Of a stretch of 64,000 nt of DNA, positions 5,300 to 31,937 are shown one piece after another. The position numbers and the translations under genes were made by a program. Below the pieces are notes generated by a model. It did not search any database. It was not told where the DNA came from and saw only the letters and a program-made list of their open reading frames with translations. This DNA is from SAR202 cluster bacterium bin90. Lineage in GTDB: Bacteria; Chloroflexota; Dehalococcoidia; Lucifugimonadales; JADFKI01. The number at the start of each line of letters is the position of its first letter. Position 1 is the first letter of the stretch. The stretch spans positions 35,943 through 99,942 of the forward strand of contig MPND01000006.1 in assembly GCA_002238855.1 (NCBI GenBank), written 5' to 3'.

Positions 5300-6628
5300 T
5301 TAGCCCCCGCTTGAACCCTCGCTCCGCCTGGGCTTGCCCGCCTGCGTAAGCGCCATCGCTCCCGTGAAGAACAGCGCCGCGATAAGCAGGAAGGCGAAGT
5401 CGTAGCTTCCGGTGCTATCGAATGACCAGCCCGCGAGAATGGGGCCAAGGAACGACGACACACCCATCGTTATGCTCATCACGCCCATGATGCTGCCGTA
5501 GAACCTGACGCCGAATGCGTCCTGAACGATGAGCGGCGTGAGCGCACCGAACGCGCCCAGGAAAAATCCGAAGCAGCCCACCACTATCCACACGAGCGGC
5601 AGCACCGCGCCGGCGGCTATCATCGGCAGCGGAATTGAAACTCCCGCAAAGTAAGTCAGCAGGACGAGGAAGCCTGACTGCCCGAACAGGTCTATCATCA
5701 GGGCGTACCGCGCCGTAATGCGGTCGGCGAGCAGACCCATAATGAACTTGCCTGTCATTCCGCAGCCGGCGAGGAGACTCAGCGCGATTGCCGCAGAGCC
5801 GGATGATACACCCTCCCCCGTCAGGTGAGCCGCGACTTGGGTGAGCACACCGGTATATGTGAGTGAGCCGAGCATCATCGCGACAGTTATCGCGTAGAAC
5901 GCCTTAGTTCGCGCGGACTCCTTAAGCGACCAGCCGGTCAGCACGACCGGAGCGCCATCAGAAGCCGCATCCCCCTCCCGCCCCCTGCTGCGCAAATTCT
6001 CCCTTGTCGGGAACTCGCGTACGACCAGGAGAGCGTACACCGTCATCAGTATGCCGATTACACCGAACAGCAGGTAAGTCCCCTGCCACGGAGACAGGTT
6101 TATGAACGCCCAGTGCCAAGACATGCCCAGCGCGAATGTAGTGAGATGGGGAAATGTCATGCCGCCGAAGTTGTTGCCCATGAGCGTGATGCCCATTACA
6201 CGGCCGCGCGAGCGCTGGAACCATATACCCACCAGCCTGCCAGCAGGCAGAATGGACGCGCCGGAAAAGCCCAGGTACTGTACGAAACTGAGCGCATACC
6301 AGTGCCAGAGCTCGGTCATCATGGGGCGCATCAGGTAGCTGATGACTATGAGAGCCATAGATGCGACAAGAATGTTCTTCGCGCCATGCCTGTCCATGAT
6401 GTAGCCGAGGTACGGCGCGATGAAGCTGCCGACAGCGGTGAAGGACAGCGAGAGGTTGATCTGAGTGCGCGTCCAGCCGAACTCCTGCTCCAGCGGCTCG
6501 ATCAGCAGCCCGAAGGCGTACTGCCCTGAGCCGACCGTGAGCATTGCGGCGAGAAACGGTGCGGAGATGACCCACCAGCCGGCATATATGGAAATCGGCC
6601 TGGGGCGCAGTGCGTTGAGCATCGGCAA
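5300..6628 (-). CDS. MFS transporter
   Basis: 442 aa with about 12 hydrophobic segments and an MFS-type loop (MDRHGAKN). Confidence 0.8.
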   Translation of the reverse strand: MPMLNALRPRPISIYAGWWVISAPFLAAMLTVGSGQYAFGLLIEPLEQEFGWTRTQINLSLSFTAVGSFIAPYLGYIMDRHGAKNILVASMALIVISYLMRPMMTELWHWYALSFVQYLGFSGASILPAGRLVGIWFQRSRGRVMGITLMGNNFGGMTFPHLTTFALGMSWHWAFINLSPWQGTYLLFGVIGILMTVYALLVVREFPTRENLRSRGREGDAASDGAPVVLTGWSLKESARTKAFYAITVAMMLGSLTYTGVLTQVAAHLTGEGVSSGSAAIALSLLAGCGMTGKFIMGLLADRITARYALMIDLFGQSGFLVLLTYFAGVSIPLPMIAAGAVLPLVWIVVGCFGFFLGAFGALTPLIVQDAFGVRFYGSIMGVMSITMGVSSFLGPILAGWSFDSTGSYDFAFLLIAALFFTGAMALTQAGKPRRSEGSSGG

Positions 6629-6740
6629 AGAGTATATCAGGTGATTAGTATTTCAGTTAGTCAGCGTATAATTTTGCTACGATATGCAGAATCTGCAAAT
6701 ATTCTGACAGTCCATTGATATGCTGTAGGAGCGCCAGTAT

Positions 6741-7598
6741 ATGAACAAATACGAAGTAGCCCTATCGTTTGCTGGAGAGCAGCGACATTACGTCGAAGAA
6801 GTGGCACGAGGACTTCAGAGCCGAGGAATCGCTGTATTCTACGATGAATTTGAGAAGGTCAGCCTGTGGGGGAAAAGCCTAACTGAGGAGTTTCATAGAA
6901 TATTCGAGAATGATGCTGGGCGAGTTGTCATGTTTATATCAAGAGACTACGTCCAGAAGGCTTGGCCAAGGCATGAACGGCGATCTGTCCTTAGCAAGGC
7001 AGTTCATGAATCAACAGAATATGTACTACCGGTGCGCTTCGACGATACCAAAGTTCCAGGACTGCCTACTGATGTCAGCTACCTGCCTGCAGAGGAATAC
7101 TCGCCCAGTGAACTCGCCGCGATGATCGGAGAGAAATTAGGTGTAACTCGGTTCGCAGCAAAAGCATCCGATGTACCTCCTCCGCGTATGACATCCCTAA
7201 CAGGTGAGGTGGTGTTTGACTACGGAAGCCATAATGGGCGTTTCGTGATAGGGCGAGATGTGCTGGAATTTGAAACAAAGTGGAGTAGGGCGAGCAACAC
7301 GAGCATTTACGTTTACAATGACCCTCCATCGATAAACGGCGTTGCGCTGGCTCCGCGTGACTGCGTGAGCATCGGGAAGGTTGTTGATGCCCAACTTCTC
7401 GATTTCACCTCGCGCAGTCGGACCCCTCAAATCGGGCAGATCGTGATGTTCCGAAACACAAAAGGCTTCTATGCAGCGGTACAGATTCTGGGCATCAAAC
7501 ACGGTGGTCGGGGTGACGACAACTATGAACTGCGCTTTCGTTACGTCATCCAATCTGATGGCTCGGACGACTTCACAAGTTTGAGCACTTCTAACTAA
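6741..7598 (+). CDS. TIR-domain protein with unassigned C-terminal domain of about 150 aa
   Basis: N-terminus YEVALSFAGEQRHYVEEVARGLQSRGIAVFYDEFE...VVMFISRDYVQKAWPRHERRSVL matches the bacterial TIR pattern (S-F-A-G start, FIS..Y...W...E with the conserved Glu). Residues about 140..285 match no family I can name. The gene and its flanks are visibly AT-richer than the neighbours. Confidence 0.75.
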   Translation: MNKYEVALSFAGEQRHYVEEVARGLQSRGIAVFYDEFEKVSLWGKSLTEEFHRIFENDAGRVVMFISRDYVQKAWPRHERRSVLSKAVHESTEYVLPVRFDDTKVPGLPTDVSYLPAEEYSPSELAAMIGEKLGVTRFAAKASDVPPPRMTSLTGEVVFDYGSHNGRFVIGRDVLEFETKWSRASNTSIYVYNDPPSINGVALAPRDCVSIGKVVDAQLLDFTSRSRTPQIGQIVMFRNTKGFYAAVQILGIKHGGRGDDNYELRFRYVIQSDGSDDFTSLSTSN

Positions 7599-7692
7599 GC
7601 TGGTTAGCTATCCCGCTTCGTTGCCGTCCAAGTCCTTAGATGATATAACTGACTCACTGAAAAACAGACCGACTTTCTGGAGGAATTTCCAC

Positions 7693-8634
7693 ATGGCTGA
7701 ATCGGACAAAACATTTCGCATCGCGATAATCGGACAGGCGGCATTCGGGGAGAGCGTGCTCAACGCACTTGTAGAGCACGGCGAGAACATCGTTGGCGTG
7801 TTCTGCCCACCCGACAGGGAAGGCAGGCCTGCCGACCCCATCAAGACCGCCGCCGAGGGACACGACATTCCCGTGCTGCAATACCGCCGCATGCGCAACC
7901 AGGACTGCATAGACGCATTCATGGCGCTGAACGCCGACCTATGCGTGATGGCATTCGTAACCGACATCGTGCCGGACGCCATCCTCGAAGCGCCCACTCA
8001 CGGCACGATCCAGTACCACCCCTCGCTTCTCCCGCTCCATCGCGGTCCGAGCTCCATCAACTGGCCCATAATCATGGGCGACGAGAAGACCGGTCTGACC
8101 ATTTTCTGGCCCGACAAGGGGCTGGACACCGGTCCCATCCTTCTCCAGAAGGAGACGCCCATAAGCCCAGACGACACGCTCGGTTCGGTCTATTTCGGCA
8201 GGCTGTTCCAAATGGGCGTTGACGCGATGGTGGAGTCCGTGGATATGGTGAAGGCCGGCACCGCGCCGCGAATCGAGCAGAACCACGACGACGCCACCTA
8301 CGAGGGCTGGTGCCGCGCCGAAGACGTCATCATCGACTGGGACAAGCCCGTCAGCGAGATATACAACATGATCCGCGGAAGCGACCCCAGCCCCGGCGCA
8401 GGCACAACCTTCGGCGAAGCAGGCATGCGCTTCTTCCGCGCGAGCAGTTCTGACGGCGAAGCAGGCGGCGCGCCCGGCGAGGTCACCGAAATCACCGACG
8501 AGGGCTTCCGCATCGCGGCAAACGGCGGCTCCATATTCGTCGGCAGGGTGCAGCAGGGCCGCGAGCGCAAGGTCAATGCCCCGGAGTGGATAGAAGCAGT
8601 CGGCCTGAAGGTAGGTGACAGGTTCGGGGGCTAG
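7693..8634 (+). CDS. Formyltransferase family protein (Fmt / 10-formyl-THF dehydrogenase N-terminal-like)
   Basis: HPSLLPLHRGPSSINWPIIMGDEKTGLTIFWPDKGLDTGPILLQKE is the formyl-transferase core motif. Start set at ATG 7693, with GGAGG at 7679..7683. Confidence 0.8.
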   Translation: MAESDKTFRIAIIGQAAFGESVLNALVEHGENIVGVFCPPDREGRPADPIKTAAEGHDIPVLQYRRMRNQDCIDAFMALNADLCVMAFVTDIVPDAILEAPTHGTIQYHPSLLPLHRGPSSINWPIIMGDEKTGLTIFWPDKGLDTGPILLQKETPISPDDTLGSVYFGRLFQMGVDAMVESVDMVKAGTAPRIEQNHDDATYEGWCRAEDVIIDWDKPVSEIYNMIRGSDPSPGAGTTFGEAGMRFFRASSSDGEAGGAPGEVTEITDEGFRIAANGGSIFVGRVQQGRERKVNAPEWIEAVGLKVGDRFGG

Positions 8635-8649
8635 CTTAACTTACACGAG

Positions 8650-8886
8650 CTATGCGGAGTGGAGTGGCTGCTTCGTTTCCTTGGGCTTAACCTCGACGTT
8701 GAGGGGAGATCCCGAGATGGACTTCAGACCGAGCACATGAAAGCTGAGGACTTTGCCTTGCGCGTCAAGGCGCACTTCAATACGGTCGTCGTCAGTGTCA
8801 TACGCGACGCCTTTGCCTTTCTCGAACACAACTTCGAGAAAATCTGCCTCCGAGTCGTACCAGAGTTTTATAGCGTCTTTTCCCAT
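8650..8886 (-). CDS. DUF2283 family small protein (often the antitoxin-like partner of DUF4258)
   Basis: KLWYDSEADFLEVVFEKGKGVAYDTDDDRIEVRLDAQGKVLSFHVLG matches the DUF2283 pattern. No partner gene is adjacent. Confidence 0.6.
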   Translation of the reverse strand: MGKDAIKLWYDSEADFLEVVFEKGKGVAYDTDDDRIEVRLDAQGKVLSFHVLGLKSISGSPLNVEVKPKETKQPLHSA

Positions 8887-8948: not shown

Positions 8949-9794
8949 CTAACCTTCACGTCTCGCAGCCATGATGATGTGGCTGCCACTGTCGGCAAGC
9001 CCCGGTTTGCAGTTCATCAAACGTTCGAGGCTAACTGCGGTAGCCCAGGCTTGCGCGTCGTCATAGACGTCATCTAGGGCAGCCGACCCCTCAGAAGTTG
9101 TCACATTACTGCCTGCCAATTCCAGTACCGAACAGTCCGGTAACAAGTGACGCAGTTCCTCGCTGGTGAACATGTGCATAGGTGGATGTTGCATATTTAC
9201 TCTGGGTGAAGGGAATCCGGGATTGTCACCAGAATCCGCAAGCTGACGGACATGCCACTCTTCCGGTTCTTTGAGAACAGTCAGCGTTGGTCGGCGAACC
9301 AGATTGGCAATGTTGCCGTAACGACTCATAACGCTTATCAATAGCGTGCCTCCAGGTCGGACGACTCGAACAAGTTCAGATGCTGCCTGATGGCGGCATT
9401 CACATACATAAGATAACGCTCCGCCATAGCAGATAACGACATCGAAGTGACTATCGGGAAACATCGACAGGTCGGCAATGTCCGCAAGCACAAAGGCATC
9501 AACTCGTTCGAGGAGGCGCGCCTCTCCGACTTTCTCCTTCGCAAGCTGAAGCTGACGCCCCGATATGTCAAGGGCAGTGACCGTTGCGCCCATTTGGGCT
9601 GTTGCAGTGGTGAACCTACCCGGTCCGCAACCTGCATCGAGAACTCTATCCGCTCGGCTCACATAGCGTTCTATGAAGTCTGAGTGGATTATGGCTTGAA
9701 GACGTCCGTAAGGCGTGGTTTCAAGCCTATCCCATTCGAGGCTTCCATACGCGTCATAGAACTCCCCAGCATAGTCGGAATCGTACATGCTCAA
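8949..9794 (-). CDS. Class I SAM-dependent methyltransferase
   Basis: Motif I VLDAGCGPGRFT and motif II-like FDVVICYGGALSY. Confidence 0.8.
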   Translation of the reverse strand: MSMYDSDYAGEFYDAYGSLEWDRLETTPYGRLQAIIHSDFIERYVSRADRVLDAGCGPGRFTTATAQMGATVTALDISGRQLQLAKEKVGEARLLERVDAFVLADIADLSMFPDSHFDVVICYGGALSYVCECRHQAASELVRVVRPGGTLLISVMSRYGNIANLVRRPTLTVLKEPEEWHVRQLADSGDNPGFPSPRVNMQHPPMHMFTSEELRHLLPDCSVLELAGSNVTTSEGSAALDDVYDDAQAWATAVSLERLMNCKPGLADSGSHIIMAARREG

Positions 9795-9893: not shown

Positions 9894-10493
9894 TTACACA
9901 CCCACAGCCGAGCTATCGCCCTGCATCTCCTCCCACTCGTCCCGCAGAATCTCCATCTGGATGAACTCCAGCCCGCGGCGGCGTGTCTGCTTGACCTGCC
10001 GGAAGCCCGACTTGCCGAACGACTTCTGCGCGCGATGGTTCCAGTCGAGCGTGTGCAGGTAAACCCGCTTCATGTTCGTGTCCGTGAAGATATACTTCAC
10101 AAGCGTGTCCACCGCGTCAGTGCCGTAGCCCTTGCTCCAGTAGGCGCGGTCGCCGATCATTATGCCCAGTTCGGTCTCGCCCCGCCGCGTGTCGATGTCG
10201 TAGTACATGCAATTGCCGATGTGCTTGCCTGTAAGGTCATCGATGGCAAAACGCTTCGACCGCGAACTGGGATAGTCAATCTCCTCCTGCGAGTACCGCA
10301 GAAAGTCGTTGTACGCCATGTTCAGCGGGCGTGTAGCATCCAGCCTCGCAAGCTCCTCGTCCACGCGCCAGGTGTAGTCATCGAGAGCATCTTCAATGCG
10401 TTTCTCTCGAAGCACCACCTTCCTGCCCTCAAGCGAGATGGGATCAGCCGGCTCGGGCTTTCTTCGAGATAATGTGAAGGGCATTCTTAACAA
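9894..10493 (-). CDS. GNAT family N-acetyltransferase (RimJ/RimL-like)
   Basis: ELGIMIGDRAYWSKGYGTDAVDTLVKYIF and RAQKSFGKSGF motifs. The 5' end overlaps the upstream NUDIX gene by about 40-50 nt, so the start is uncertain. Confidence 0.75.
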   Translation of the reverse strand: MLRMPFTLSRRKPEPADPISLEGRKVVLREKRIEDALDDYTWRVDEELARLDATRPLNMAYNDFLRYSQEEIDYPSSRSKRFAIDDLTGKHIGNCMYYDIDTRRGETELGIMIGDRAYWSKGYGTDAVDTLVKYIFTDTNMKRVYLHTLDWNHRAQKSFGKSGFRQVKQTRRRGLEFIQMEILRDEWEEMQGDSSAVGV

Positions 10494-10914
10494 CTTTGAC
10501 CTCGTTATCGTAAGTCAGCGTTCTAATGGCTTCCGTCGCGGAAAGCCAGCGCACATAGTCGAACTCATGGTCATGGAGCGACAGGTCTCCGCCATTCGCG
10601 CTCATCAGGTAGAAGTACACCACCTTGTGACAGTCCGCGCCATCGCCATACCGCTCGAAGCAGTATTCAATGCTCTGGACGAACTCGTCAATGCTGACCT
10701 CCAGGCCCGTCTCTTCCGTTACCTCTCTCACGGCGGTCTGCTCTCGCGTCTCGCCGTCCTCGGGCGTGCCCTTCGGCAAACCCCAGATGACATGACCGGG
10801 TTGGGCGTCGAAACCGCAGACTACGATCTCCACATCATCCCCGCGCGCCCTTGCCACCACGCCGCCCATGGACTCCAATTCAATCAGATCAGCCAATACA
10901 CCGCTCCATCCCAT
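10444..10914 (-). CDS. NUDIX hydrolase
   Basis: Nudix box GLPKGTPEDGETREQTAVREVTEETGL. Confidence 0.8.
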   Translation of the reverse strand: MGWSGVLADLIELESMGGVVARARGDDVEIVVCGFDAQPGHVIWGLPKGTPEDGETREQTAVREVTEETGLEVSIDEFVQSIEYCFERYGDGADCHKVVYFYLMSANGGDLSLHDHEFDYVRWLSATEAIRTLTYDNEVKVVKNALHIISKKARAG

Positions 10915-16410: not shown

Positions 16411-17163
16411 GTGCCGAGTTTCATAACCATCGCCCATCGCGGCGCATCATCCTACGCCCCCGAGAACACCTTCGCTGCCTACGACAAGGCGCTGGCAATG
16501 GGCGTCAACCACATCGAACTCGATGTCCATCTGACCCGTGACGACCACATCGTTGTCATCCACGACGACACCGTGGACAGGACAACCGACGCTCAGGGCC
16601 GCGTGGCAGACTTCACCCTGAATGAGCTGCGCGCGCTGGACGCCGGAAGCTGGTTCAGCACTGAGTACGCGGGCGAGCGTATCCGCTCCCTCGGCGAGAC
16701 GCTGGAGCACTACAAGGGCAAGCTGCACTTCCACATCGAGATTAAGCAACGCGAAATTGCAGGCGGCCTTGCGCGCCGCACAATAGACATGGTTCGCGGA
16801 TACGGCCTGACCGACAGCGTAACCATAACCTCGTTCCAGATCGAGTGGATGAAAGAATCGGCAGCCTATGACTCAGAGCTGCCAAAGGGCTGGCTCGTAC
16901 CGATGGGCAATGTCCCCTGGGACGACTCGATCATCACGCAGTCCAAAGAACTTGGCCTCATGCAGATCTGCCCCCGCGCCGACCTGACAACTCCCGAACT
17001 GGTGGACAGACTCCACGGCGAAGGCTTCGTCGTTCGCTGCCACGGCCTGTTCAACGAAGACCTCATGCGCCACGCCGTAGATGTAGGCGCAGACGGCGCC
17101 ACCGTCAACTTCCCCGACAAGATGGCAGAGTATCTTAAAGCAAATGGTATCAGTCAACACTGA
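16411..17163 (+). CDS. Glycerophosphodiester phosphodiesterase family protein
   Basis: IAHRGASSYAPENTFAAY, ELDVHLTRDDHIVVIHDDTVDRTT and LDAGSWF motifs. GTG start. Lies between carA and carB. Confidence 0.85.
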   Translation: MPSFITIAHRGASSYAPENTFAAYDKALAMGVNHIELDVHLTRDDHIVVIHDDTVDRTTDAQGRVADFTLNELRALDAGSWFSTEYAGERIRSLGETLEHYKGKLHFHIEIKQREIAGGLARRTIDMVRGYGLTDSVTITSFQIEWMKESAAYDSELPKGWLVPMGNVPWDDSIITQSKELGLMQICPRADLTTPELVDRLHGEGFVVRCHGLFNEDLMRHAVDVGADGATVNFPDKMAEYLKANGISQH

Positions 17164-17239
17164 CGACACAACTGCAGACCTGCTACAATGATGCCAATCA
17201 TACACATCAAAATGTGATGCCGATTGAAAGTGCAGGTGA

Positions 17240-17485
17240 ATGATGCGAACCACTCTCGATATTGACAGTGCTCTCCTAGACAAGGTGGTTGACGCCACAG
17301 GAGAGAAGACGAAGAGCAAGGCAGTCAACTCTGCCCTGAAGGAATACATACGCCGGAAGCAAGTTCAAGAGTTCATCGACTCCTGGGGCAAGATAGTCGT
17401 TGATGATTACAGCAAGGAAGTTGAGGAAGCCAATAGAAAGAGGCACGAATTCCTAGACTCCATTGGAAGGGATTCTGACCGATGA
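17240..17485 (+). CDS. vapB: VapB-type antitoxin (DUF2191-like)
   Basis: MRTTLDIDSALLDKVVDATGEKTKSKAVNSALKEYIRRK is typical of the VapB/DUF2191 family. The 4-nt overlap with the PIN gene indicates an operon. Confidence 0.75.
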   Translation: MMRTTLDIDSALLDKVVDATGEKTKSKAVNSALKEYIRRKQVQEFIDSWGKIVVDDYSKEVEEANRKRHEFLDSIGRDSDR

Positions 17486-22107: not shown

Positions 22108-24699
22108 TTGATCCCCCTCAGACTCACCGTCAACAACTTCATGTGCTACCGCGACGACGTGCCGCCCCTGCACTTCGAGAGCATCCACGTTGCCTGCCTC
22201 TGCGGGGACAACGGCCACGGCAAGACCGCCCTCCTCGACGCCATCACATGGGCTCTCTGGGGCATCGCGCGCGCCACACCAACCGGCACCGGCACGATCA
22301 ACGCCCTACGAATCGCCGACCTGGTGCATATGGGGCAGACCGACATGAGCGTCGAGCTGGACTTCACATCAGGCGACCAGCGATACCGCGTCATCCGCAG
22401 GCACACCGTCAGCACCGGCGGTCGTAGCAGCAGGACCACGCTCGAGCTGCAAATCGCGACCGACGACGAAAGCGAATCGTTTCGCTCCATAAGTCGAAAC
22501 TCCGTCCGCGAGACGAACGCACGCATCAGCGAAATCCTGAACATGGACTTCAAGACCTTCGTCAACACCGCGTACCTCGCGCAGGGCCAAGCAGACCTGT
22601 TCACCACCAGCACGCCCACCGAGCGCAAGCGGTGCCTCGCCGAAGTCCTGGACCTGTCCTATTACCAGCGTCTGTCTGAAGACGCCAACGCCCGAAGCCG
22701 CAGCATCCAGACCGAGATACAACAGACGCTCACCGCGATTAGCCTCCACTCGGAGGAAACTGCACGCAAGCCCGAGTACGAGAGCCGCCTGAACGACATT
22801 GACGCCTATATCGCCAGGGCTGCACCCCAAGCCGAAGCGCAGCGCAAGCAAGTCGAGACGCTTCGCGGTGAGGTGCAGCAACTCCAGGCGCTCGCATCCG
22901 AGTTCACTGCGCTCCAGCAGCGAACTCAGTCCGCCCAGGCCGACACCGTCCGCCTGCAACGGCAAGTCGGCGCAGACGAAAAGCGCATCGCCGCATATCA
23001 AGCCACAATCGCAGACGCGCCTCAAATCCTGAGCGGCTACGAATCACTTCAAACTGCACAGGCAGAGATTGAAAGACTTGACATCGCCCTATCTGAAAAG
23101 AGCCGCCTTGACGCACGGATCGCCGCCCTCTCGCAGACCATAGCGCGACAGGAAGAGCGCATCGCGTCCACGGTGAAGACATTGCGGCACCGAATATCCA
23201 CCGAGTTGGAGCCGCGCGTAAACCGCCTGCCGGAAATCAAGAAACTTCAGACTGCGATGCAGCACCGGAACACTGCTCTCACGCAGCAGGCCGCCTCAAT
23301 CGAACGACAGCGCACGGACACCGATGCAATCGCCGTTCGCATCCAGACGCTTGAGCAGAACAACGAGCGTCTGATGGAGCAGATGCAGGACACCCGACAG
23401 AAGTTCGACATGCTCGAACAAGGCGACACCACTTGCCCCCTCTGCAGCCAGCAGCTCGGTCCCGACGGGCAGCAACACTTACGCGCGGAGTACCGGCGCA
23501 TCGGCGTGGCGAGCCGGGCATCGTTCAATGACAACGACACCCAGATCGAAAACCTCACGCGCGAGCACAAAACATCAACCCAGACTCTGGCATCTATGGA
23601 ATCAAAGCAAATCACTGATAGCCGTACCCTCGCCGCTGATGAAGCAAATCTGGCGCGTGACGAACAGGACTCGCTGAAAGCCCAGCACGAATTGCAGCAG
23701 GCGTCCCAATCCCTCTCGGACGCCGAGCGCACCCTGCGAGACAAGTCTTTCGCGCAGGATGAGCGCAATGAGCTTGCAGAGTTGGGCACTTCCCTGGACG
23801 CGCTCCAATACGACGCCGAAGCGCACCAGCAAGTCCGCCGGCAAGTCGCCTCCCTGCGCAAATTCGACGCCGCGCACCACGCGCTCAACGAAGCGCATGC
23901 CAACCTGCCCGGTGTCAGTGAAGCCCTCCAAACCGGTCGCCAGATGCTCGCGAATCGGCAGGCGGAAATAGATGCCGCCGCTGAGCGAATTAGTACGCTG
24001 AAGCGGGACATCGAATCCCTGCCGGCGCTCACGACCAAGCTCAGCGAAGCAGTGCAAAGTAGCGAGAACCTGGAGACACAAATACGACAAGCAGAGATAG
24101 ACCGCGGCGTGCTGCAGAACAACATCAGTCGCTGCGAGAATCTGGAAGCTCAGATACGCGATCTGGAGAAGGAGCATCGCCGTCTCGCCCGAGACAAGAG
24201 CATCTACGACGAGTTGACCGTCGCATTCGGCAAGAATGGCATACAGGCGCTAGTCATAGAAAGCGCCATCCCACAGCTACAGGACGACGCCAACGAGATC
24301 CTTGGCCGCGTCACCGAAAACCGCATGCACCTGAAACTGGAACTAGACGAGAGCACATCCGAGCAGCTTGAGATACGCATCGCCGACGAGCTAGGCACTC
24401 GAGACTACCTCACATTCAGCGGCGGCGAGGCGTTCCGCATAAACTTCGCCCTCCGAATCGCGCTCTCCCGCCTGCTTGCCCGACGCTCAGGCGCACCGCT
24501 CCCCGTGCTGTTCATAGACGAGGGCTTCGGCTCGCAGGACAGAGCAGGCCAGGAACGCCTGACCGAAGCCATCCAGTCAATTCAGGACGAGTTCGAAAAG
24601 ATAATCGTCATCACCCACATCGACCAGATGAAAGAAGCCTTCCCCGTCCGAATAGAAGTCAGCAAGGGCGAAAGAGGCTCGACTTTCAGCATCGTGTAA
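22108..24699 (+). CDS. sbcC: SbcC/Rad50-like SMC-family ATPase
   Basis: N-terminal Walker A CGDNGHGKTALLDAITWALWG, a long Gln/Ala/Glu-rich coiled coil, central zinc hook CPLCSQQL, and C-terminal signature FSGGEAFRINFALRIAL followed by Walker B LFIDEGFGSQD. TTG start. No sbcD is adjacent. Confidence 0.85.
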   Translation: MIPLRLTVNNFMCYRDDVPPLHFESIHVACLCGDNGHGKTALLDAITWALWGIARATPTGTGTINALRIADLVHMGQTDMSVELDFTSGDQRYRVIRRHTVSTGGRSSRTTLELQIATDDESESFRSISRNSVRETNARISEILNMDFKTFVNTAYLAQGQADLFTTSTPTERKRCLAEVLDLSYYQRLSEDANARSRSIQTEIQQTLTAISLHSEETARKPEYESRLNDIDAYIARAAPQAEAQRKQVETLRGEVQQLQALASEFTALQQRTQSAQADTVRLQRQVGADEKRIAAYQATIADAPQILSGYESLQTAQAEIERLDIALSEKSRLDARIAALSQTIARQEERIASTVKTLRHRISTELEPRVNRLPEIKKLQTAMQHRNTALTQQAASIERQRTDTDAIAVRIQTLEQNNERLMEQMQDTRQKFDMLEQGDTTCPLCSQQLGPDGQQHLRAEYRRIGVASRASFNDNDTQIENLTREHKTSTQTLASMESKQITDSRTLAADEANLARDEQDSLKAQHELQQASQSLSDAERTLRDKSFAQDERNELAELGTSLDALQYDAEAHQQVRRQVASLRKFDAAHHALNEAHANLPGVSEALQTGRQMLANRQAEIDAAAERISTLKRDIESLPALTTKLSEAVQSSENLETQIRQAEIDRGVLQNNISRCENLEAQIRDLEKEHRRLARDKSIYDELTVAFGKNGIQALVIESAIPQLQDDANEILGRVTENRMHLKLELDESTSEQLEIRIADELGTRDYLTFSGGEAFRINFALRIALSRLLARRSGAPLPVLFIDEGFGSQDRAGQERLTEAIQSIQDEFEKIIVITHIDQMKEAFPVRIEVSKGERGSTFSIV

Positions 24700-24766
24700 C
24701 CGTCGCGATACCTTTCGGAAGACCGTACAATAGCAAGGGAGGGATACCGAAGTGTGCTAGAATCTG

Positions 24767-25123
24767 ATGGACATGAGCTTGTTTGAAGATAATCAGGCAT
24801 TTATTCGACAGAAAGCCGAGGAACATCAATCTGGACTTCTTGGACGGAAGATAATCTGGTCATATCATAGCGATGACAAGCTCAGCGCAGAAGGGCTTGC
24901 AGCCGCTGAAATAGAATGGTCTCTACAAAACTGCGAAGTCATAGAAATCTATCCTGATTCGCATCGTCGATTTCCTGACTGTTTGGTTATAGGCTACCTA
25001 GATTCTGGGGAACCTTTCCACGCGGTCATAGCAATGGATAACATCAGAGACAGATTGCTAATGGTAACCGTTTACATGCCGAATGAAGAGGTATGGCAAG
25101 ATGACTGGAAAACAAGAAAATAG
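24767..25123 (+). CDS. DUF4258-domain toxin-like protein
   Basis: About 118 aa with IIWSYHSDDKLSAEGLAAAEIEWSLQNCEVIE...PFHAVIA...MVTVY, matching the DUF4258 pattern. AT-richer region. An extended -10-like TGCTAGAAT lies at 24755..24763. Confidence 0.6.
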   Translation: MDMSLFEDNQAFIRQKAEEHQSGLLGRKIIWSYHSDDKLSAEGLAAAEIEWSLQNCEVIEIYPDSHRRFPDCLVIGYLDSGEPFHAVIAMDNIRDRLLMVTVYMPNEEVWQDDWKTRK

Positions 25124-26140: not shown

Positions 26141-27388
26141 TCATGATGCCACCCCGCTCTGAGCCACCTGACGTACAGGATACAACAACCCCGCAATGAC
26201 GCCAACGACTGAAAACACCGCCATCACCACCAACCCAGTCAACAGCGACCCACTCACCTCCGCAACAACTCCCACAATCATCGGACCAGCAGCAAACCCC
26301 AATCCCGCAAACATCGCCACCAGCGCGCTCACCGCAGCCACTTCGCGCGGCAGAATCCCCTCGAACTCGAACGGCAGCATCTCCATCGCGGGCACCGCTA
26401 TCCACACCAGCCCCAGCGCCGTGATTGCCACTGCCAGCAGCACAGCATCCGTAGTCAGCACGATCGCCAGCGCAAGCACCACATTCAGCACAGCAGGCAC
26501 CGCAAGCAGCACTCGCCGGTTGCTCAGCTTACGATTCACCCATCCACCCGCGAGCGCACCCGGTATCAGCCCGTAGTACAGGAAGCCCAGCAGTGGCCCA
26601 CCCAGCGTTATCTCGATGCCTCTGTCCTCCAGCAGCAGCGTCGGCAGAAAAGTAACAATCCCCGTCCACACCGACGCCAGCGAGAACATCACTATCGCCA
26701 CAAGCCAGCCCTGCCTGTATTTCCGCAGTGCAGCAAGCGGGCTAGTCGGCTGATTCGCCAGCGCGTCGCCCATATCCTGCACCGGCGCCCTGCTCTCCCG
26801 CGCCGCAAGCATGAACACCACCGCCTGCACCGCCACGAACCCCGCCTGCAGGTAGTACGCGCCGCGCCAGCTCCCCAGCGCAACTATCAGCAACGCGCCC
26901 GTGCTCACCGCAACCGCAAGAAGCAAACTGTGCTGGGAAAGTCCCACAGCATTGATTAGCGCATACTGCCGCCTGACCGCCCACTGGTGAAACAACAGCG
27001 GGCGCACCGCAATCGTCAGAGAGTGGAACAGCACAGCCAGGAACCGCGCAACGAACAGCATCGCGAATCCGTTCGCAAACCCCTGCAACAGCAGCAACGG
27101 CGCAACGATCCACATTGACAGCCGCGTAACCGCCACCGGACTAAAGCGGGAAAACCACACTCCGAACGGCAGCACAGCCACCGCCGCCGTCACCCACCAC
27201 ACACCCTGCAGCAGCCCCGCTTGCAGCGGACTCAGCGCCAGGTCCTGCGCGATAAACGGCAGGAACACCCCCAGCACAAACGACGACAACCGCAAGCTGC
27301 TAAGCTGCAGGTGCGACAGCAGCAACACCGCCCACCCCCGCAGCGATGTGCGCTCTACACCGTCAGACAATGCGGTTGGAGATTGCAT
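26141..27388 (-). CDS. MFS transporter
   Basis: 415 aa with about 12 TM segments. Stop is 17 nt upstream of the subunit B start. Confidence 0.75.
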   Translation of the reverse strand: MQSPTALSDGVERTSLRGWAVLLLSHLQLSSLRLSSFVLGVFLPFIAQDLALSPLQAGLLQGVWWVTAAVAVLPFGVWFSRFSPVAVTRLSMWIVAPLLLLQGFANGFAMLFVARFLAVLFHSLTIAVRPLLFHQWAVRRQYALINAVGLSQHSLLLAVAVSTGALLIVALGSWRGAYYLQAGFVAVQAVVFMLAARESRAPVQDMGDALANQPTSPLAALRKYRQGWLVAIVMFSLASVWTGIVTFLPTLLLEDRGIEITLGGPLLGFLYYGLIPGALAGGWVNRKLSNRRVLLAVPAVLNVVLALAIVLTTDAVLLAVAITALGLVWIAVPAMEMLPFEFEGILPREVAAVSALVAMFAGLGFAAGPMIVGVVAEVSGSLLTGLVVMAVFSVVGVIAGLLYPVRQVAQSGVAS

Positions 27389-27716
27389 TAATGGAATTGC
27401 GGACTTTCAGGATAGCGAGATTAGTGATTTCCGAAGCCATGCACGGCTTAAACACGGGAGATTAGGTGACATAAACCTATATGCAGTATAATGCTGTTGA
27501 AACGGAGTGGGGAACATACGCCCATTTCACTATAAGCGTTCTCGCAAGGGGGCGTATTTTTCGTTTCTGGGACATGTGAAATAAGGAGGTTGACTATGAC
27601 TTAGCAACCGGCAGCACACATACGGCGGGCGGCTTGCGCCCAATCTTCTGAGAACGTTCCTAAAATGCTGGAACGTTTCTTGGTTTCTGGCATCTGAAGA
27701 TTTTTTATGGAGGGAT

Positions 27717-28418
27717 ATGTTGAACACAAGAGATATAGACAATCGGGTTACCGGTGCATTTGACGAATTAGTAAATGAGGCTTCACGTTCGCGCCTTCTT
27801 GGTGAGATTGCTTTTCAACCTTACGGACGGCATGAGAAAACCATAGAGGACTTGTTCCGCACTGCATTGCGCTCTCAATTTGGCGAGCGCGTAAGAATTC
27901 CATCTAATCAGACTAAAGAGCATTACAATAAACTGCACGACATCGTCGTATTACACAATTCAGTGACACTTGCGAAGTTTGAGGTTAAGACGCCTTTTAC
28001 CGATACCCCTGGAATTCGCGGCAAGACTCGCAAGCCTGAACATTTGCCCAAAGACATGAATGCGCTTAAAGCAGCACTAGAAACTGGAGCATCGTCAGCA
28101 TACGCTTTGATCACCCCTATCGGGTGCTATCCAGTGGATCCTAATGTCACCATGACTGTTCTCAATAGTAGATCATTAAAAAAGAATGAGGAAGCCATAA
28201 AGGCAAAGTATCAAATACAGTGGCCGACTAGGCCCGATTATGAAACCAATCCGCTACACGGCAAGCAAGAAGTGGACAGAGCCATGAAGCAACTTGCGGA
28301 TGAACGGAGGCTTAAAGTGAAGCGTGTAAAGGGCTGGCAAAAAGTTGTGCTACCTAAACCCAAGCCTAACATATACACCTTCATCGACTGCGCCCTCTAC
28401 AAAGTTCAGCTAAAATAA
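27717..28418 (+). CDS. Hypothetical protein, possible PD-(D/E)xK nuclease fold
   Basis: 233 aa with GGAGGG 4 nt upstream of the ATG. Segment KLHDIVVLHNSVTLAKFEVKT fits a D-x(13)-E-x-K arrangement. Opposite strand to all neighbours and clearly AT-richer. I recognise no family. Confidence 0.5.
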   Translation: MLNTRDIDNRVTGAFDELVNEASRSRLLGEIAFQPYGRHEKTIEDLFRTALRSQFGERVRIPSNQTKEHYNKLHDIVVLHNSVTLAKFEVKTPFTDTPGIRGKTRKPEHLPKDMNALKAALETGASSAYALITPIGCYPVDPNVTMTVLNSRSLKKNEEAIKAKYQIQWPTRPDYETNPLHGKQEVDRAMKQLADERRLKVKRVKGWQKVVLPKPKPNIYTFIDCALYKVQLK

Positions 28419-31472: not shown

Positions 31473-31937
31473 ATGAGCATAAGCATACGTAACGCAACCC
31501 CCGCAGATATAGACCGCATCGCCGAGTTCCAGCAGGCGATGGCAATGGAAACCGAAAACAGAACGCTAGACCCCTCTGTCAGCACACAGGGCATAACAGC
31601 CATATTCGACGACCCGCTCAAGGGATTCTACATTGTCGCGGTATCCAGCTCCGATGAAGTCGTCGGCAGTCTGCTCATCACCTACGAGTGGAGCGACTGG
31701 AGCAACGCCAACCACTGGTGGATCCAGAGCGTCTATGTCGATGCCGCCTGGCGACGCAAGGGTGTGTACCGCACCATGTACGAGCATATTCTTGGATTGA
31801 CCAAGGGACGCAGCGACATCTGTAGCATCCGCCTCTACGTCGAGCGCTCCAATTCCGTCGCCCAGCAGACCTACAAGAGCCTCGGCATGAGCCACTCCCA
31901 CTATGACATGTACGAAATAGACCTGACTCAGCCTTAA
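31473..31937 (+). CDS. GNAT family N-acetyltransferase
   Basis: WIQSVYVDAAWRRKGVYRTMYEHI is the acetyl-CoA binding motif A. Confidence 0.8.
   Translation: MSISIRNATPADIDRIAEFQQAMAMETENRTLDPSVSTQGITAIFDDPLKGFYIVAVSSSDEVVGSLLITYEWSDWSNANHWWIQSVYVDAAWRRKGVYRTMYEHILGLTKGRSDICSIRLYVERSNSVAQQTYKSLGMSHSHYDMYEIDLTQP

What the first reader, a model, noticed from the sequence alone, without database searches (positions are those of the whole stretch)
6629..7692. Stand-alone TIR-domain protein with an unassigned C-terminal domain in a single-gene AT-rich islet
**TIR domain.** The first ~130 aa of 6741..7598 carry a bacterial TIR pattern: ALSFAGEQR..., VFYDEFE, and FISRDYVQKAWPRHER with the conserved Glu that is catalytic in NAD-cleaving TIRs.

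**C-terminal domain.** The C-terminal ~150 aa (GEVVFDYGSHNGRFVIGRDVLEFETKWSRASNTSIYVYND...FRYVIQSDGSDDF) look like a beta-rich domain that I cannot place in any family.

**Context.** The gene and both flanks are clearly AT-richer than the neighbours. It sits between the divergent 5' ends of an MFS transporter gene and a formyltransferase gene. No ThsA-like, STING, CBASS or other known partner is adjacent.

Bacterial TIR proteins are recurrent anti-phage NADase or signal-generating modules. A one-gene TIR plus novel sensor/effector domain is therefore a plausible undescribed defence gene.
Basis: partly seen in the sequence, partly recalled or inferred. Interest (0 to 1): 0.7.

Follow-up and report, generated by a model that had tools for sequence, protein, structure and literature searches.

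The report
Stand-alone TIR protein with novel sensor-like domain
A single inserted gene encodes a likely NAD-cleaving TIR immune enzyme fused to a previously undescribed beta-rich domain, and the computational evidence points to an untested one-gene anti-phage defence that has spread between bacterial phyla.

Summary
Window 6741..7598 (+) encodes a 285-aa soluble protein. Its N-terminal half is a TIR domain (Pfam TIR_2, 56 bits) with an invariant catalytic Glu (E79). Its C-terminal ~133 aa form a confidently modelled all-beta domain (pLDDT 90) that matches nothing in Pfam, NCBIfam, PADLOC, PHROGs, PDB or BFVD.

The gene is a compositional outlier (GC3 0.51 vs 0.74). It is a true single-gene insertion: related contigs have the MFS and formyltransferase genes adjacent with no TIR gene between them. 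It is under purifying selection (dN/dS ~0.1).

The two-domain family is large (1393 hits) and has moved between phyla, with up to 91% identity across phyla. Its members sit next to defence and mobile-element genes far more often than a control set does. No neighbour is universal, although 14 loci carry an optional HExxH partner.

The C-terminal domain is a promiscuous module. It is also fused to SEFIR, AbiH, AbiJ, deaminase, HNH, caspase and kinase domains.

Best reading: a single-gene, abortive-infection-type TIR defence with a new sensor domain. Function is untested. The window's own copy sits among housekeeping genes. The literature tools failed, so prior description could not be excluded.

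The parts
6741..7598 (+). CDS of the 285-aa TIR-CTD protein (stop codon included)
   Evidence: ORF listing. An identical protein is called on 12 public contigs. 1393 homologues were found. dN/dS is 0.10-0.11. The protein has no TM segment or signal peptide (maximum KD(19) 0.98) and a pI of 5.9.
6741..7145 (+). TIR domain, residues 1-135
   Evidence: Pfam TIR_2 at 56 bits over residues 6-115. Best solved relatives are AbTIR and 7uwg at E = 2e-5. The PADLOC, NCBIfam and PHROGs hits all fall within this half.
6963..6977 (+). W75-x3-E79 catalytic motif (WPRHE); the E79 codon GAA is at 6975-6977
   Evidence: The motif aligns to WTNYE of AbTIR. E79 is conserved in 75/75 and W75 in 74/75 family members.
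7146..7196 (+). Conserved basic, Pro-rich linker and N-terminal extension of the CTD (residues 136-152, TRFAAKASDVPPPRMTS)
   Evidence: K141, A142, S143, P148 and T151 are invariant in alignment A1. The segment's pI is 10.8. It is modelled partly packed on the CTD. Closer CTD relatives include it, while distant ones start at about residue 150.
7197..7595 (+). Unassigned all-beta C-terminal domain (CTD), residues 153-285
   Evidence: AF2 model with pLDDT 89.9, pTM 0.85 and 8 strands. No family or fold match. 672 clusters at 50% identity carry the domain in many architectures.
6629..6740 (.). Upstream AT-rich spacer (GC 0.375) with TATAAT at 6667-6672 and the AGGAG RBS at 6727-6731
   Evidence: Sequence read directly. 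GC content. The consensus promoter scan did not call a full -35/-10 pair here.
7599..7692 (.). Downstream spacer (GC 0.468) before the formyltransferase ATG at 7693
   Evidence: No intrinsic-terminator-like site was found.
6648..6664 (.). Left arm of the inverted repeat that brackets the inserted gene (GTATTTCAGTTAGTCAG)
   Evidence: 15 of 17 positions are complementary to 7649-7665. 2 of 300 shuffles reach this score. The repeat is conserved in syntenic L006 and L010, and more weakly in L013. It is absent around homologues elsewhere.
7649..7665 (.). Right arm of the bracketing inverted repeat (CTGACTCACTGAAAAAC)
   Evidence: The arm lies 28 nt before the formyltransferase ATG. The left arm lies about 20 nt from the MFS start.

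Best explanation
The gene encodes a cytoplasmic, self-contained immune protein of the TIR class.

**Shown**
- It has an N-terminal TIR domain with the catalytic Glu intact, fused through a conserved linker to a new all-beta domain.
- The two-domain unit is conserved as a block under purifying selection.
- It moves horizontally as a single gene.
- It tends to land among defence and mobile-element genes.
- The beta domain is a portable module attached to many other conflict-system effectors.

**Inferred**
- The C-terminal domain is the sensor or regulatory module. It recognises a conserved infection cue (a phage component, or a host molecule altered by infection).
- On recognition it releases or nucleates self-association of the TIR domains. 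Self-association is what activates known TIR enzymes.
- The assembled TIR active site, with E79 as the catalytic residue, then cleaves NAD+.
- The cell is depleted of NAD+ and infection aborts. The TIR may also release ADPR or cyclic-ADPR products.
- In about one locus in six, a downstream HExxH (zincin-like) protein, once fused to the TIR-CTD protein, probably modulates or extends the response. The window's copy works without it.
For: - **TIR identity and catalytic motif:**
- **Block conservation of both domains and the linker:** 64-79% identity over the full length in more than 120 clusters. dN/dS is about 0.1.
- **No conserved neighbour:** the largest non-TIR neighbour cluster is in 8 of 80 loci.
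- **Single-gene insertion:** empty sites L095-L098. GC and GC3 are outliers in the window, and the gene is GC-poorer than its flanks in 69 of 80 homologous loci, p = 6e-13.
- **Cross-phylum transfer:** up to 91% identity between phyla.
- **Defence context.**
  - Top neighbour families are AAA_21/AriA, Schlafen-AlbA_2, AbiLi, GajB-like UvrD, type I R-M, further TIR proteins, transposases and integrases.
  - The neighbour ORFs matched 352 PADLOC families, against 1 in a matched control.
  - One homologue sits beside a CBASS operon and a CAP12-type TIR gene.
- **CTD fusions:** TIR (29 of 96), SEFIR, AbiH, AbiJ_NTD4, AAA_21, deaminases, HNH, caspase and kinases.
- **Cellular location:** the protein is soluble, with no signal peptide.
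- **No adjacent effector:** no ThsA, SAVED or Ago partner is present.
Against: - There is no functional evidence of any kind.
- The window's copy lies between housekeeping genes. It has been retained at one locus across genomes that differ by 6-33% in neighbouring proteins, which is more stable than many defence genes.
- Both domains are strongly conserved, with no sign of the diversification common in phage-protein sensors.
- The CTD also occurs with cadherin/RTX, PKD, CsgG, matrixin and astacin domains, which are extracellular contexts, so it may be a general binding module.
- The invariant Trp four residues before the Glu is, from memory of work on AbTir, linked to cyclic-ADPR formation. 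That would fit a signalling TIR rather than a pure NAD+ depleter.
- The TIR half modelled poorly (pLDDT about 40-70).
- The PADLOC comparison counts families rather than proteins, and the control loci come from different organisms.
Confidence: 0.55

Rival explanations
1. The protein is a signal-generating TIR of the Thoeris ThsB type. The CTD senses infection and the TIR makes a cyclic-ADPR-type or other NAD-derived messenger. An effector encoded elsewhere in the genome reads that messenger, so the gene is one half of a split system.
For: - W75-x3-E79 is invariant and aligns with the AbTIR motif. From memory, that Trp is needed for cyclisation in AbTir.
- There is a weak ThsB1 profile hit, E = 9e-5.
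- Other TIR genes and cyclic-nucleotide systems occur near some homologues.
Against: - No ThsA-like, SLOG, Macro or SIR2 gene lies within 10 kb or in the annotated remainder of the window.
- No neighbour recurs across 80 loci.
- The gene transfers between phyla on its own, which is hard to reconcile with dependence on an unlinked partner.
Confidence: 0.15
2. The protein is a host-interaction factor. It would be a Tcp-like TIR protein that symbionts use to interfere with TIR-based innate immunity of an animal host (many relatives appear to come from sponge-microbiome MAGs). That would explain its spread across unrelated symbiont phyla.
For: - The closest 60 or more relatives are MAGs from more than 10 phyla at 60-91% identity.
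- Several bin names (RHO, COS, SB06xx, OM1) match, from memory, published sponge-microbiome studies.
- Solved relatives include TcpB and PdTIR.
Against: - There is no signal peptide or recognisable secretion signal.
- The same family occurs at 41-57% identity in bacteria not tied to an animal host by their names or sources, including Sphingomonas (one a pasture MAG), Novosphingobium, Azospirillum and Pseudomonas.
- The CTD is fused to Abi-type and other intracellular conflict effectors.
- Neighbours are anti-phage and mobile-element genes.
- The habitat of the samples could not be verified here.
Confidence: 0.07
3. The protein is a selfish or stress-responsive NADase toxin, not aimed at phage. 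The CTD would act as an autoinhibitory or ligand-gated switch that responds to a metabolic or envelope cue. The gene would persist as an addiction-like element or a dormancy trigger.
For: - It is often adjacent to toxin-antitoxin genes and IS elements.
- It lies on small Prescottella equi plasmids next to a 'putative T/A antitoxin'.
- It has been retained long-term in a housekeeping context under purifying selection.
- The strong conservation of the CTD suggests a conserved ligand.
Against: - No cognate antitoxin gene is conserved next to it.
- Its association with dedicated anti-phage systems is much stronger than in the control.
- CTD fusions include AbiH and AbiJ-type abortive-infection domains.
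Confidence: 0.15
4. The TIR acts non-enzymatically as a protein-protein scaffold, or on a substrate other than NAD+ (for example nucleic acids, as reported for some plant TIRs).
For: TIR domains are ancestrally adaptor modules. The TIR half could not be modelled confidently.
Against: The catalytic Glu and its surrounding motif are invariant across 75 sequences spanning 41-100% identity, which is not expected for a pure scaffold.
Confidence: 0.05

Closest known systems
AbTir and other stand-alone bacterial TIR NADases (PDB 7uwg, 8g83, 7uxr)
   Same: These are the best solved-structure relatives of the TIR half, at E = 2e-5 over residues 3-104. They share the W-x3-E catalytic motif. Both are single proteins with a TIR domain plus one accessory domain.
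   Different: AbTir carries an N-terminal coiled-coil region and a C-terminal TIR (from memory). Here the TIR is N-terminal and is followed by a new all-beta domain. Similarity is confined to the TIR core.
Thoeris ThsB (TIR sensor and signal generator)
   Same: It is a TIR protein thought to sense infection itself. There is a weak ThsB1 profile match, E = 9e-5.
   Different: No ThsA effector is adjacent or anywhere in the annotated window. No neighbour is conserved across 80 loci. The match is partial.
PADLOC candidate PDC-S66 (single-gene TIR candidate)
   Same: It is the best PADLOC hit, E = 1e-12, and is a single-gene TIR-containing candidate.
   Different: Only profile positions 147-242 of 282 align, to residues 2-100 here. 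In PDC-S66 the TIR is therefore C-terminal, behind a different N-terminal region. The CTD is not covered.
Retron-TIR / RT-TIR (NCBIfam NF042941, PADLOC RT-TIR_XII)
   Same: The TIR sub-type is similar: E = 2.5e-12, 46 bits over residues 2-102.
   Different: There is no reverse transcriptase domain and no ncRNA. The score of 46 bits is far below the 600-bit cut-off.
SPARTA TIR-APAZ, and the CBASS and Pycsar TIR effectors (TIR-SAVED, CAP12-type TIR)
   Same: The logic is the same: a TIR NADase held inactive until a fused or partner sensor domain triggers oligomerisation. Foldseek matches with the full model are weak, E about 2e-3.
   Different: There is no APAZ or Ago, no SAVED, and no cyclase partner. 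TM-scores are 0.31 or less. The SAVED_TIR profile scores only E = 0.035.
HmuY-family all-beta proteins and Tudor/SH3-like barrels (for the CTD only)
   Same: Two independent weak signals point to HmuY-like proteins. Foldseek's top PDB hits are 8b6a, 4gbs, 6eu8, 3u22 and 3h8t, and 3 of 43 CTD sequences match Pfam HmuY weakly. The GxxVVxxNxxGxYAA hairpin aligns to the KDM4B Tudor domain at E = 0.09.
   Different: All signals are below significance (E >= 3.9e-3, TM <= 0.41). The CTD is about 60 residues shorter than HmuY. No haem ligands can be inferred.

Membership tests
TIR domain superfamily (Pfam TIR_2, PF13676) | Profile match above the curated gathering score | tested here: met
   56.2 bits against a 28-bit cut-off, E = 6e-15, residues 6-115.
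TIR domain superfamily (enzymatic NADase subclass) | Conserved catalytic Glu in the position of AbTIR, SARM1 and ThsB | tested here: met
   E79 aligns to the Glu of AbTIR's WTNYE motif and is invariant in 75 of 75 homologues.
TIR domain superfamily (enzymatic NADase subclass) | NAD+ cleavage activity | not testable with these tools
   This needs a biochemical assay.
Thoeris (ThsA + ThsB) | ThsB-type TIR protein matching ThsB profiles over its full length | tested here: inconclusive
   ThsB1 profile at E = 9e-5, covering only residues 3-99 and profile positions 166-260 of 303.
Thoeris (ThsA + ThsB) | Adjacent ThsA effector (SIR2/SLOG, Macro/TM or similar) | tested here: not met
   None is present within 10 kb or in the other annotated parts of the window. 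No neighbour is conserved across 80 loci.
PADLOC PDC-S66 | Full-length match to the PDC-S66 profile | tested here: not met
   Only profile positions 147-242 of 282 match, and the domain order differs.
Retron-TIR anti-phage reverse transcriptase (NF042941) | Score above the equivalog cut-off, and an RT domain | tested here: not met
   46 bits against a 600-bit cut-off. Only the TIR part aligns, and no RT domain is present.
SPARTA (TIR-APAZ + short pAgo) | APAZ domain and an adjacent short Argonaute | tested here: not met
   There is no Ago or APAZ in the Pfam tables. Foldseek TM is 0.31 or less.
CBASS / Pycsar TIR effectors | SAVED or another nucleotide-sensor domain, plus a cyclase operon | tested here: not met
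   SAVED_TIR profile at E = 0.035. There is no SMODS or cyclase gene nearby in the window.
HmuY-like fold (for the CTD) | Significant sequence or structure match to HmuY-family proteins | tested here: inconclusive
   Foldseek E = 3.9e-3 to 0.75 with TM 0.26-0.41. Pfam HmuY matched 3 of 43 sequences, best E = 0.026. All of these are sub-threshold.
Anti-phage defence system (generic operational definition) | Enrichment of family members next to known defence genes | tested here: met
   146 neighbour ORFs matched 352 PADLOC families at E <= 1e-10, with AriA, AbiLi, type I R-M and GajB among the top families. 142 control ORFs matched 1 family. The Pfam census agrees. This is a crude count of families, not a genome-wide statistic.
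Anti-phage defence system (generic operational definition) | Protection against phage when expressed | not testable with these tools
   This needs phage-challenge experiments.

The most novel reading that the evidence does not exclude
The C-terminal domain is a previously unnamed, widespread sensor or adaptor module of prokaryotic conflict systems. It is present in at least 672 clusters at 50% identity. It occurs alone, in tandem arrays of up to five copies, and fused to at least ten effector classes. It would gate those effectors in response to one conserved cue. The TIR-CTD form would then be a new stand-alone defence system that has swept across more than 10 bacterial phyla sharing a habitat (possibly the sponge holobiont).
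Probability: 0.35. Interest if true: 0.72.

Novelty: new variant of a known kind. Interest (0 to 1): 0.55.

Why it matters
TIR enzymes are a shared immune currency of bacteria, plants and animals, and what differs between systems is how infection is sensed. This case offers a compact 285-aa unit in which a new, well-folded beta domain is the only candidate sensor.

The same domain is wired to many other effectors: SEFIR, Abi-type domains, deaminase, nuclease, caspase and kinase. Identifying its ligand would therefore explain the triggering of a whole set of uncharacterised systems at once.

The family is abundant in poorly studied phyla such as Chloroflexota, Latescibacterota, Acidobacteriota and Gemmatimonadota, where almost no defence systems have been validated. 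Its near-identical copies in different phyla give a clear example of defence-gene exchange within a community.

If the optional zincin-like partner proves functional, it would add a protease-linked TIR variant.

Tried and rejected
- **Literature.** The paper search and paper reading failed on every attempt. No literature check was possible. All statements about published systems rest on my own knowledge and are marked as such.
- **Foldseek with the full-length model.** It gave only weak TIR-driven matches, so I re-modelled the CTD alone. That model still found no fold match in PDB or BFVD. No AlphaFold DB library was available.
- **Profile of 43 diverse CTDs.** Against PDB sequences and Pfam it gave only sub-threshold Tudor and HmuY leads. 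These are not accepted as assignments.
- **Obligatory partner gene.** All-against-all clustering of 1560 ORFs from 80 loci found none. It did reveal the optional HExxH partner, which has no Pfam or PHROGs match.
- **Inverted repeat as the terminal repeat of a mobile cassette.** Rejected, because the repeat is absent around homologues in 74 other loci. It is more likely paired promoter or operator motifs of the two flanking genes.
- **Phage or plasmid origin.** Only one weak partial relative turned up in IMG/VR, and one CTD hit among phage records. Among plasmids there were 22 records, of which only one was full-length, at 30% identity. The family is mainly chromosomal.
- **SbcC-like 863-aa ORF (22108..24699) as a possible defence ATPase.** It matches an SbcC-like PHROG and looks like a housekeeping gene.
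Full report

Yes. An ATG-initiated ORF of 285 aa occupies 6741..7598 on the + strand. An AGGAG ribosome-binding site lies 9 nt upstream, and a perfect TATAAT box sits at 6667-6672.

The N-terminal half is a TIR domain:
- Residues 6-115 match Pfam TIR_2 at 56 bits against a 28-bit cut-off.
- The best solved relatives are AbTIR-type TIR domains. In that alignment WPRHE lies over WTNYE, which places E79 on the AbTIR Glu.
- Across 75 family members spanning 41-100% identity, E79 is invariant and W75 is conserved in 74.

The C-terminal half is unassigned:
- It has no hit in Pfam, NCBIfam, PADLOC or PHROGs.
- It has no PDB sequence or profile hit better than E = 0.09.
- Modelled alone, it folds confidently (pLDDT 89.9, pTM 0.85) into an eight-strand all-beta domain.
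- That model has no convincing structural neighbour. The best PDB hit is E = 3.9e-3 with TM 0.26, and the best viral hit has TMq 0.36.
- The only leads are sub-threshold and are not accepted as assignments. One is HmuY-family proteins, seen both by Foldseek and by weak Pfam hits in 3 of 43 sequences. The other is a Tudor-like hairpin motif.

The protein has no signal peptide or transmembrane segment.

**2. The islet**

The gene's GC (0.502) and GC3 (0.507) lie about 3.6 standard deviations below those of 30 other genes in the window (0.607 +/- 0.029 and 0.744 +/- 0.064). The two spacers are at 0.375 and 0.468.

It is a true single-gene insertion. In four metagenomic contigs (L095-L098) the orthologous MFS and formyltransferase genes are divergently adjacent, with a spacer of about 300 bp and no TIR gene.

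The insertion is not recent:
- Three related Dehalococcoidia genomes (L006, L010, L013) carry the gene at the same site at 75-79% identity. Their flanking proteins are 67-94% identical.
- dN/dS is 0.10-0.11, within the range of the neighbours (0.05-0.16).

So the gene is functional and is kept by selection.

**3. The family**

The full two-domain architecture, including a conserved Pro-rich linker, recurs in 1393 database hits. The top 120 are all about 283-290 aa at 64-79% identity. A genome scan found 177 loci.

Similarity does not follow taxonomy:

| Pair | Protein identity |
|---|---|
| Bryobacterales vs Gemmatimonadota | 91% |
| Deltaproteobacteria vs Longimicrobiales | 86% |
| Gammaproteobacteria vs Gemmatimonadota | 82% |
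| Verrucomicrobiota vs Acidobacteriota | 79% |

More distant members (41-57%) occur in Sphingomonas, Novosphingobium, Azospirillum and Pseudomonas.

Homologues are GC-poorer than their flanks in 69 of 80 loci (mean -5.6 points, Wilcoxon p = 6e-13). The family is essentially absent from viral contigs and PHROGs, and it is rare on plasmids. Annotated relatives are labelled only 'TIR domain protein' and sit near IS256 and toxin-antitoxin genes.

Many of the closest relatives are MAGs whose bin names I recognise, from memory, as coming from sponge-microbiome studies. I could not verify this.

**4. Partners and neighbourhood**

Clustering 1560 ORFs from 80 loci found no universal neighbour. The largest non-TIR cluster is present in 8 loci.

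Fourteen loci, thirteen of them labelled Dehalococcoidia MAGs, have a ~184-aa gene directly downstream:
- It carries the motif HETVHLLNP…NNLEEGVAV, a zincin-like HExxH followed by a Glu.
- In P0039 (locus L091) it is fused to the TIR-CTD protein.
- It has no Pfam or PHROGs match.
- Another homologue (L011) is followed by a different HExxH protein with a weak Peptidase_M78 hit, and then a HicB-like gene.
- The window lacks any such partner.

A census of the 146 nearest neighbour ORFs (at least 150 aa, de-replicated) gave these as the most recurrent families: AAA_21/AriA-like, AAA_15, Schlafen-AlbA_2, AbiLi, UvrD/GajB-like, type I R-M subunits, further TIR proteins, DDE transposases and integrases. 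At E <= 1e-10 these ORFs matched 352 PADLOC families. A control of 142 ORFs, processed the same way from formyltransferase-centred loci plus the rest of the window, matched one family. One homologue lies between transposases, a CAP12-type TIR gene and a complete CBASS operon.

The window's own copy is in a metabolic neighbourhood with only scattered PIN/VapB and HicB pairs. No ThsA-like, SIR2, SLOG, Macro, SAVED or Ago gene is present.

**5. The C-terminal domain is a portable module**

A full-library search with residues 137-285 found 672 clusters at 50% identity, 399 of them at E <= 1e-10.

Among the best 150:
- 42 carry a TIR of the same type as the window's (by an HMM built from this family's TIR half).
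- The rest have the domain alone, at either terminus, or in tandem arrays of two to five copies.

A Pfam scan of 96 of these representatives shows these fusion partners:
- TIR_2 (29 proteins), SEFIR, AbiH, AbiJ_NTD4 and AbiEii-type AAA_21.
- Cytidine deaminases, HNH, caspase and metallophosphatase.
- Ser/Thr kinases and pentapeptide repeats.
- Extracellular-type domains: cadherin with RTX, PKD, CsgG, matrixin and astacin.

This is the signature of a binding or sensor module that conflict systems have recruited repeatedly. The extracellular fusions are a warning that its ligand may be generic.

**6. Mechanism**

- **Shown:** an intact TIR catalytic motif, block conservation of both domains, single-gene mobility, a defence-rich context at family level, and promiscuous use of the C-terminal domain with effectors.
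- **Inferred:** the C-terminal domain senses a conserved infection cue and licenses self-association of the TIR domains. The assembled active site, with E79 as the catalytic residue, then consumes NAD+ and aborts infection. I put this at about 0.55.

| Rival | Confidence | Main reason for the weighting |
|---|---|---|
| Signalling TIR with an unlinked effector | 0.15 | Favoured by the invariant Trp. Disfavoured by solitary transfer and the lack of any recurrent partner. |
| Non-phage NADase toxin or stress switch | 0.15 | Fits the toxin-antitoxin neighbours and stable retention. No conserved antitoxin is present. |
| Tcp-like host-interaction factor | 0.07 | Fits the habitat pattern. Disfavoured by the lack of a secretion signal and by homologues in taxa not tied to an animal host. 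|
| Non-enzymatic scaffold or a different substrate | 0.05 | Disfavoured by the invariant catalytic Glu. |

**7. Comparison with known systems**

The protein is a member of the TIR superfamily; that test was met. It is not a member of any of the following:
- Thoeris: there is no ThsA.
- PDC-S66: the match is partial and the domain order is reversed.
- Retron-TIR: 46 bits against a 600-bit cut-off, and no RT domain.
- SPARTA: no APAZ or Argonaute.
- CBASS or Pycsar TIR effectors: no SAVED domain or cyclase operon.

It probably works like the sensor-gated TIR NADases. The sensor domain is new to every library available here.

**8. Novelty and score**

I rate it a new variant of a known kind: a TIR immune effector with a new accessory domain and a stand-alone architecture. 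Interest is moderate (0.55).

- Candidate single-gene defence families are now found often, and nothing here is demonstrated.
- On the other side, the family is large and sits in poorly studied phyla. The C-terminal module links many uncharacterised systems and gives a directly testable question.
- The literature tools failed throughout, so I cannot exclude that this architecture has already been described.

Noticed in passing
window 6648-6664 and 7649-7665: A 17-nt inverted repeat (15/17 complementary) brackets the inserted TIR gene. Each arm lies about 20-28 nt from the start of a flanking gene (MFS on one side, formyltransferase on the other) and next to a TATA-like box. It is conserved in syntenic L006 and L010 (20/21 in L010) and more weakly in L013. 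It is absent around homologues in 74 other loci. It is probably a pair of promoter or operator motifs for the two divergent genes, split apart by the insertion, rather than the ends of a mobile element.
   Followed up: partly
L014:10949-11503, L016:10946-11500, L017, L018, L020, L021, L023, L032, L034, L052, L053, L077, L012:10936-11496; fused in L091 (P0039): An optional ~184-aa downstream gene carries the conserved motif HETVHLLNP...NNLEEGVAV (zincin-like HExxH plus Glu). In one genome it is fused to the TIR-CTD protein. It has no Pfam or PHROGs match and is absent from the window.
   Followed up: partly
L011:10849-11882: A different 246-aa gene overlaps the stop codon of a TIR-CTD homologue by 4 bp. 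It has a weak Peptidase_M78/IrrE-like HExxH hit (E = 0.06) and is followed by a HicB-like antitoxin gene. This is a second, unrelated metallopeptidase-like neighbour.
   Followed up: partly
window 8949-9794 (-) and 8650-8886 (-): A SAM-methyltransferase gene has low GC3 (0.52), and a small DUF2283 gene lies next to it. Both are present in the window and in L002, L003 and L005 but missing from L001, which carries an identical TIR protein. This is a second strain-variable islet 1.3 kb downstream.
   Followed up: partly
L012:1-20855: A homologue (P0083) sits on an 8-Mb contig in a mobile or defence island. The island contains DDE and Tn3 transposase genes, a CAP12/Pycsar-type TIR gene, a complete CBASS operon (SMODS, Cap2, JAB, SAVED) and a large helicase-nuclease gene.
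   Followed up: no
P0134 (864 aa), P0135, P0254, P0121, P0199: The C-terminal module forms tandem arrays of 2-5 copies. It also occurs with CsgG, and with cadherin, RTX and DUF4214 domains. These are probably extracellular proteins, which is odd for a cytoplasmic immune sensor.
   Followed up: partly
L029 vs L030; L041 vs L047/L089; L075 vs L078: Family members are nearly identical in different phyla or genera: Bryobacterales vs Gemmatimonadota 91%, Deltaproteobacteria vs Longimicrobiales 86%, and Blastomonas vs Novosphingobium 98%. This indicates recent horizontal transfer.
   Followed up: yes
L028:7459-8379 and 9917-10846; L032:9983-10849; L077:9986-10687: One Latescibacterota locus holds two paralogous copies 1.5 kb apart. 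In two Dehalococcoidia loci the gene is split or truncated (98 + 181 aa, and 233 aa), which suggests occasional decay.
   Followed up: no
L121 (Prescottella equi plasmid pRSRe2287, 14.3 kb) 6479-7447: Small P. equi plasmids encode a 322-aa 'TIR domain protein' whose C-terminal part is 39% identical to the CTD. It is followed by a 'putative T/A antitoxin' and lies among PIN and addiction genes.
   Followed up: no
window ~17000-17300, 24400-24800, 27150-28000, 31800-31900: These are further GC-poor patches of the same depth as the TIR islet. The first coincides with the VapB/PIN pair seen in L002. The others were not examined.
   Followed up: no
window 7146-7196 (residues 136-152): The inter-domain linker (AKASDVPPPRMTS) is as conserved as the domains themselves. 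K141, A142, S143, P148 and T151 are invariant in 27 sequences. That is unusual for a flexible linker and may mark a docking or processing site.
   Followed up: no
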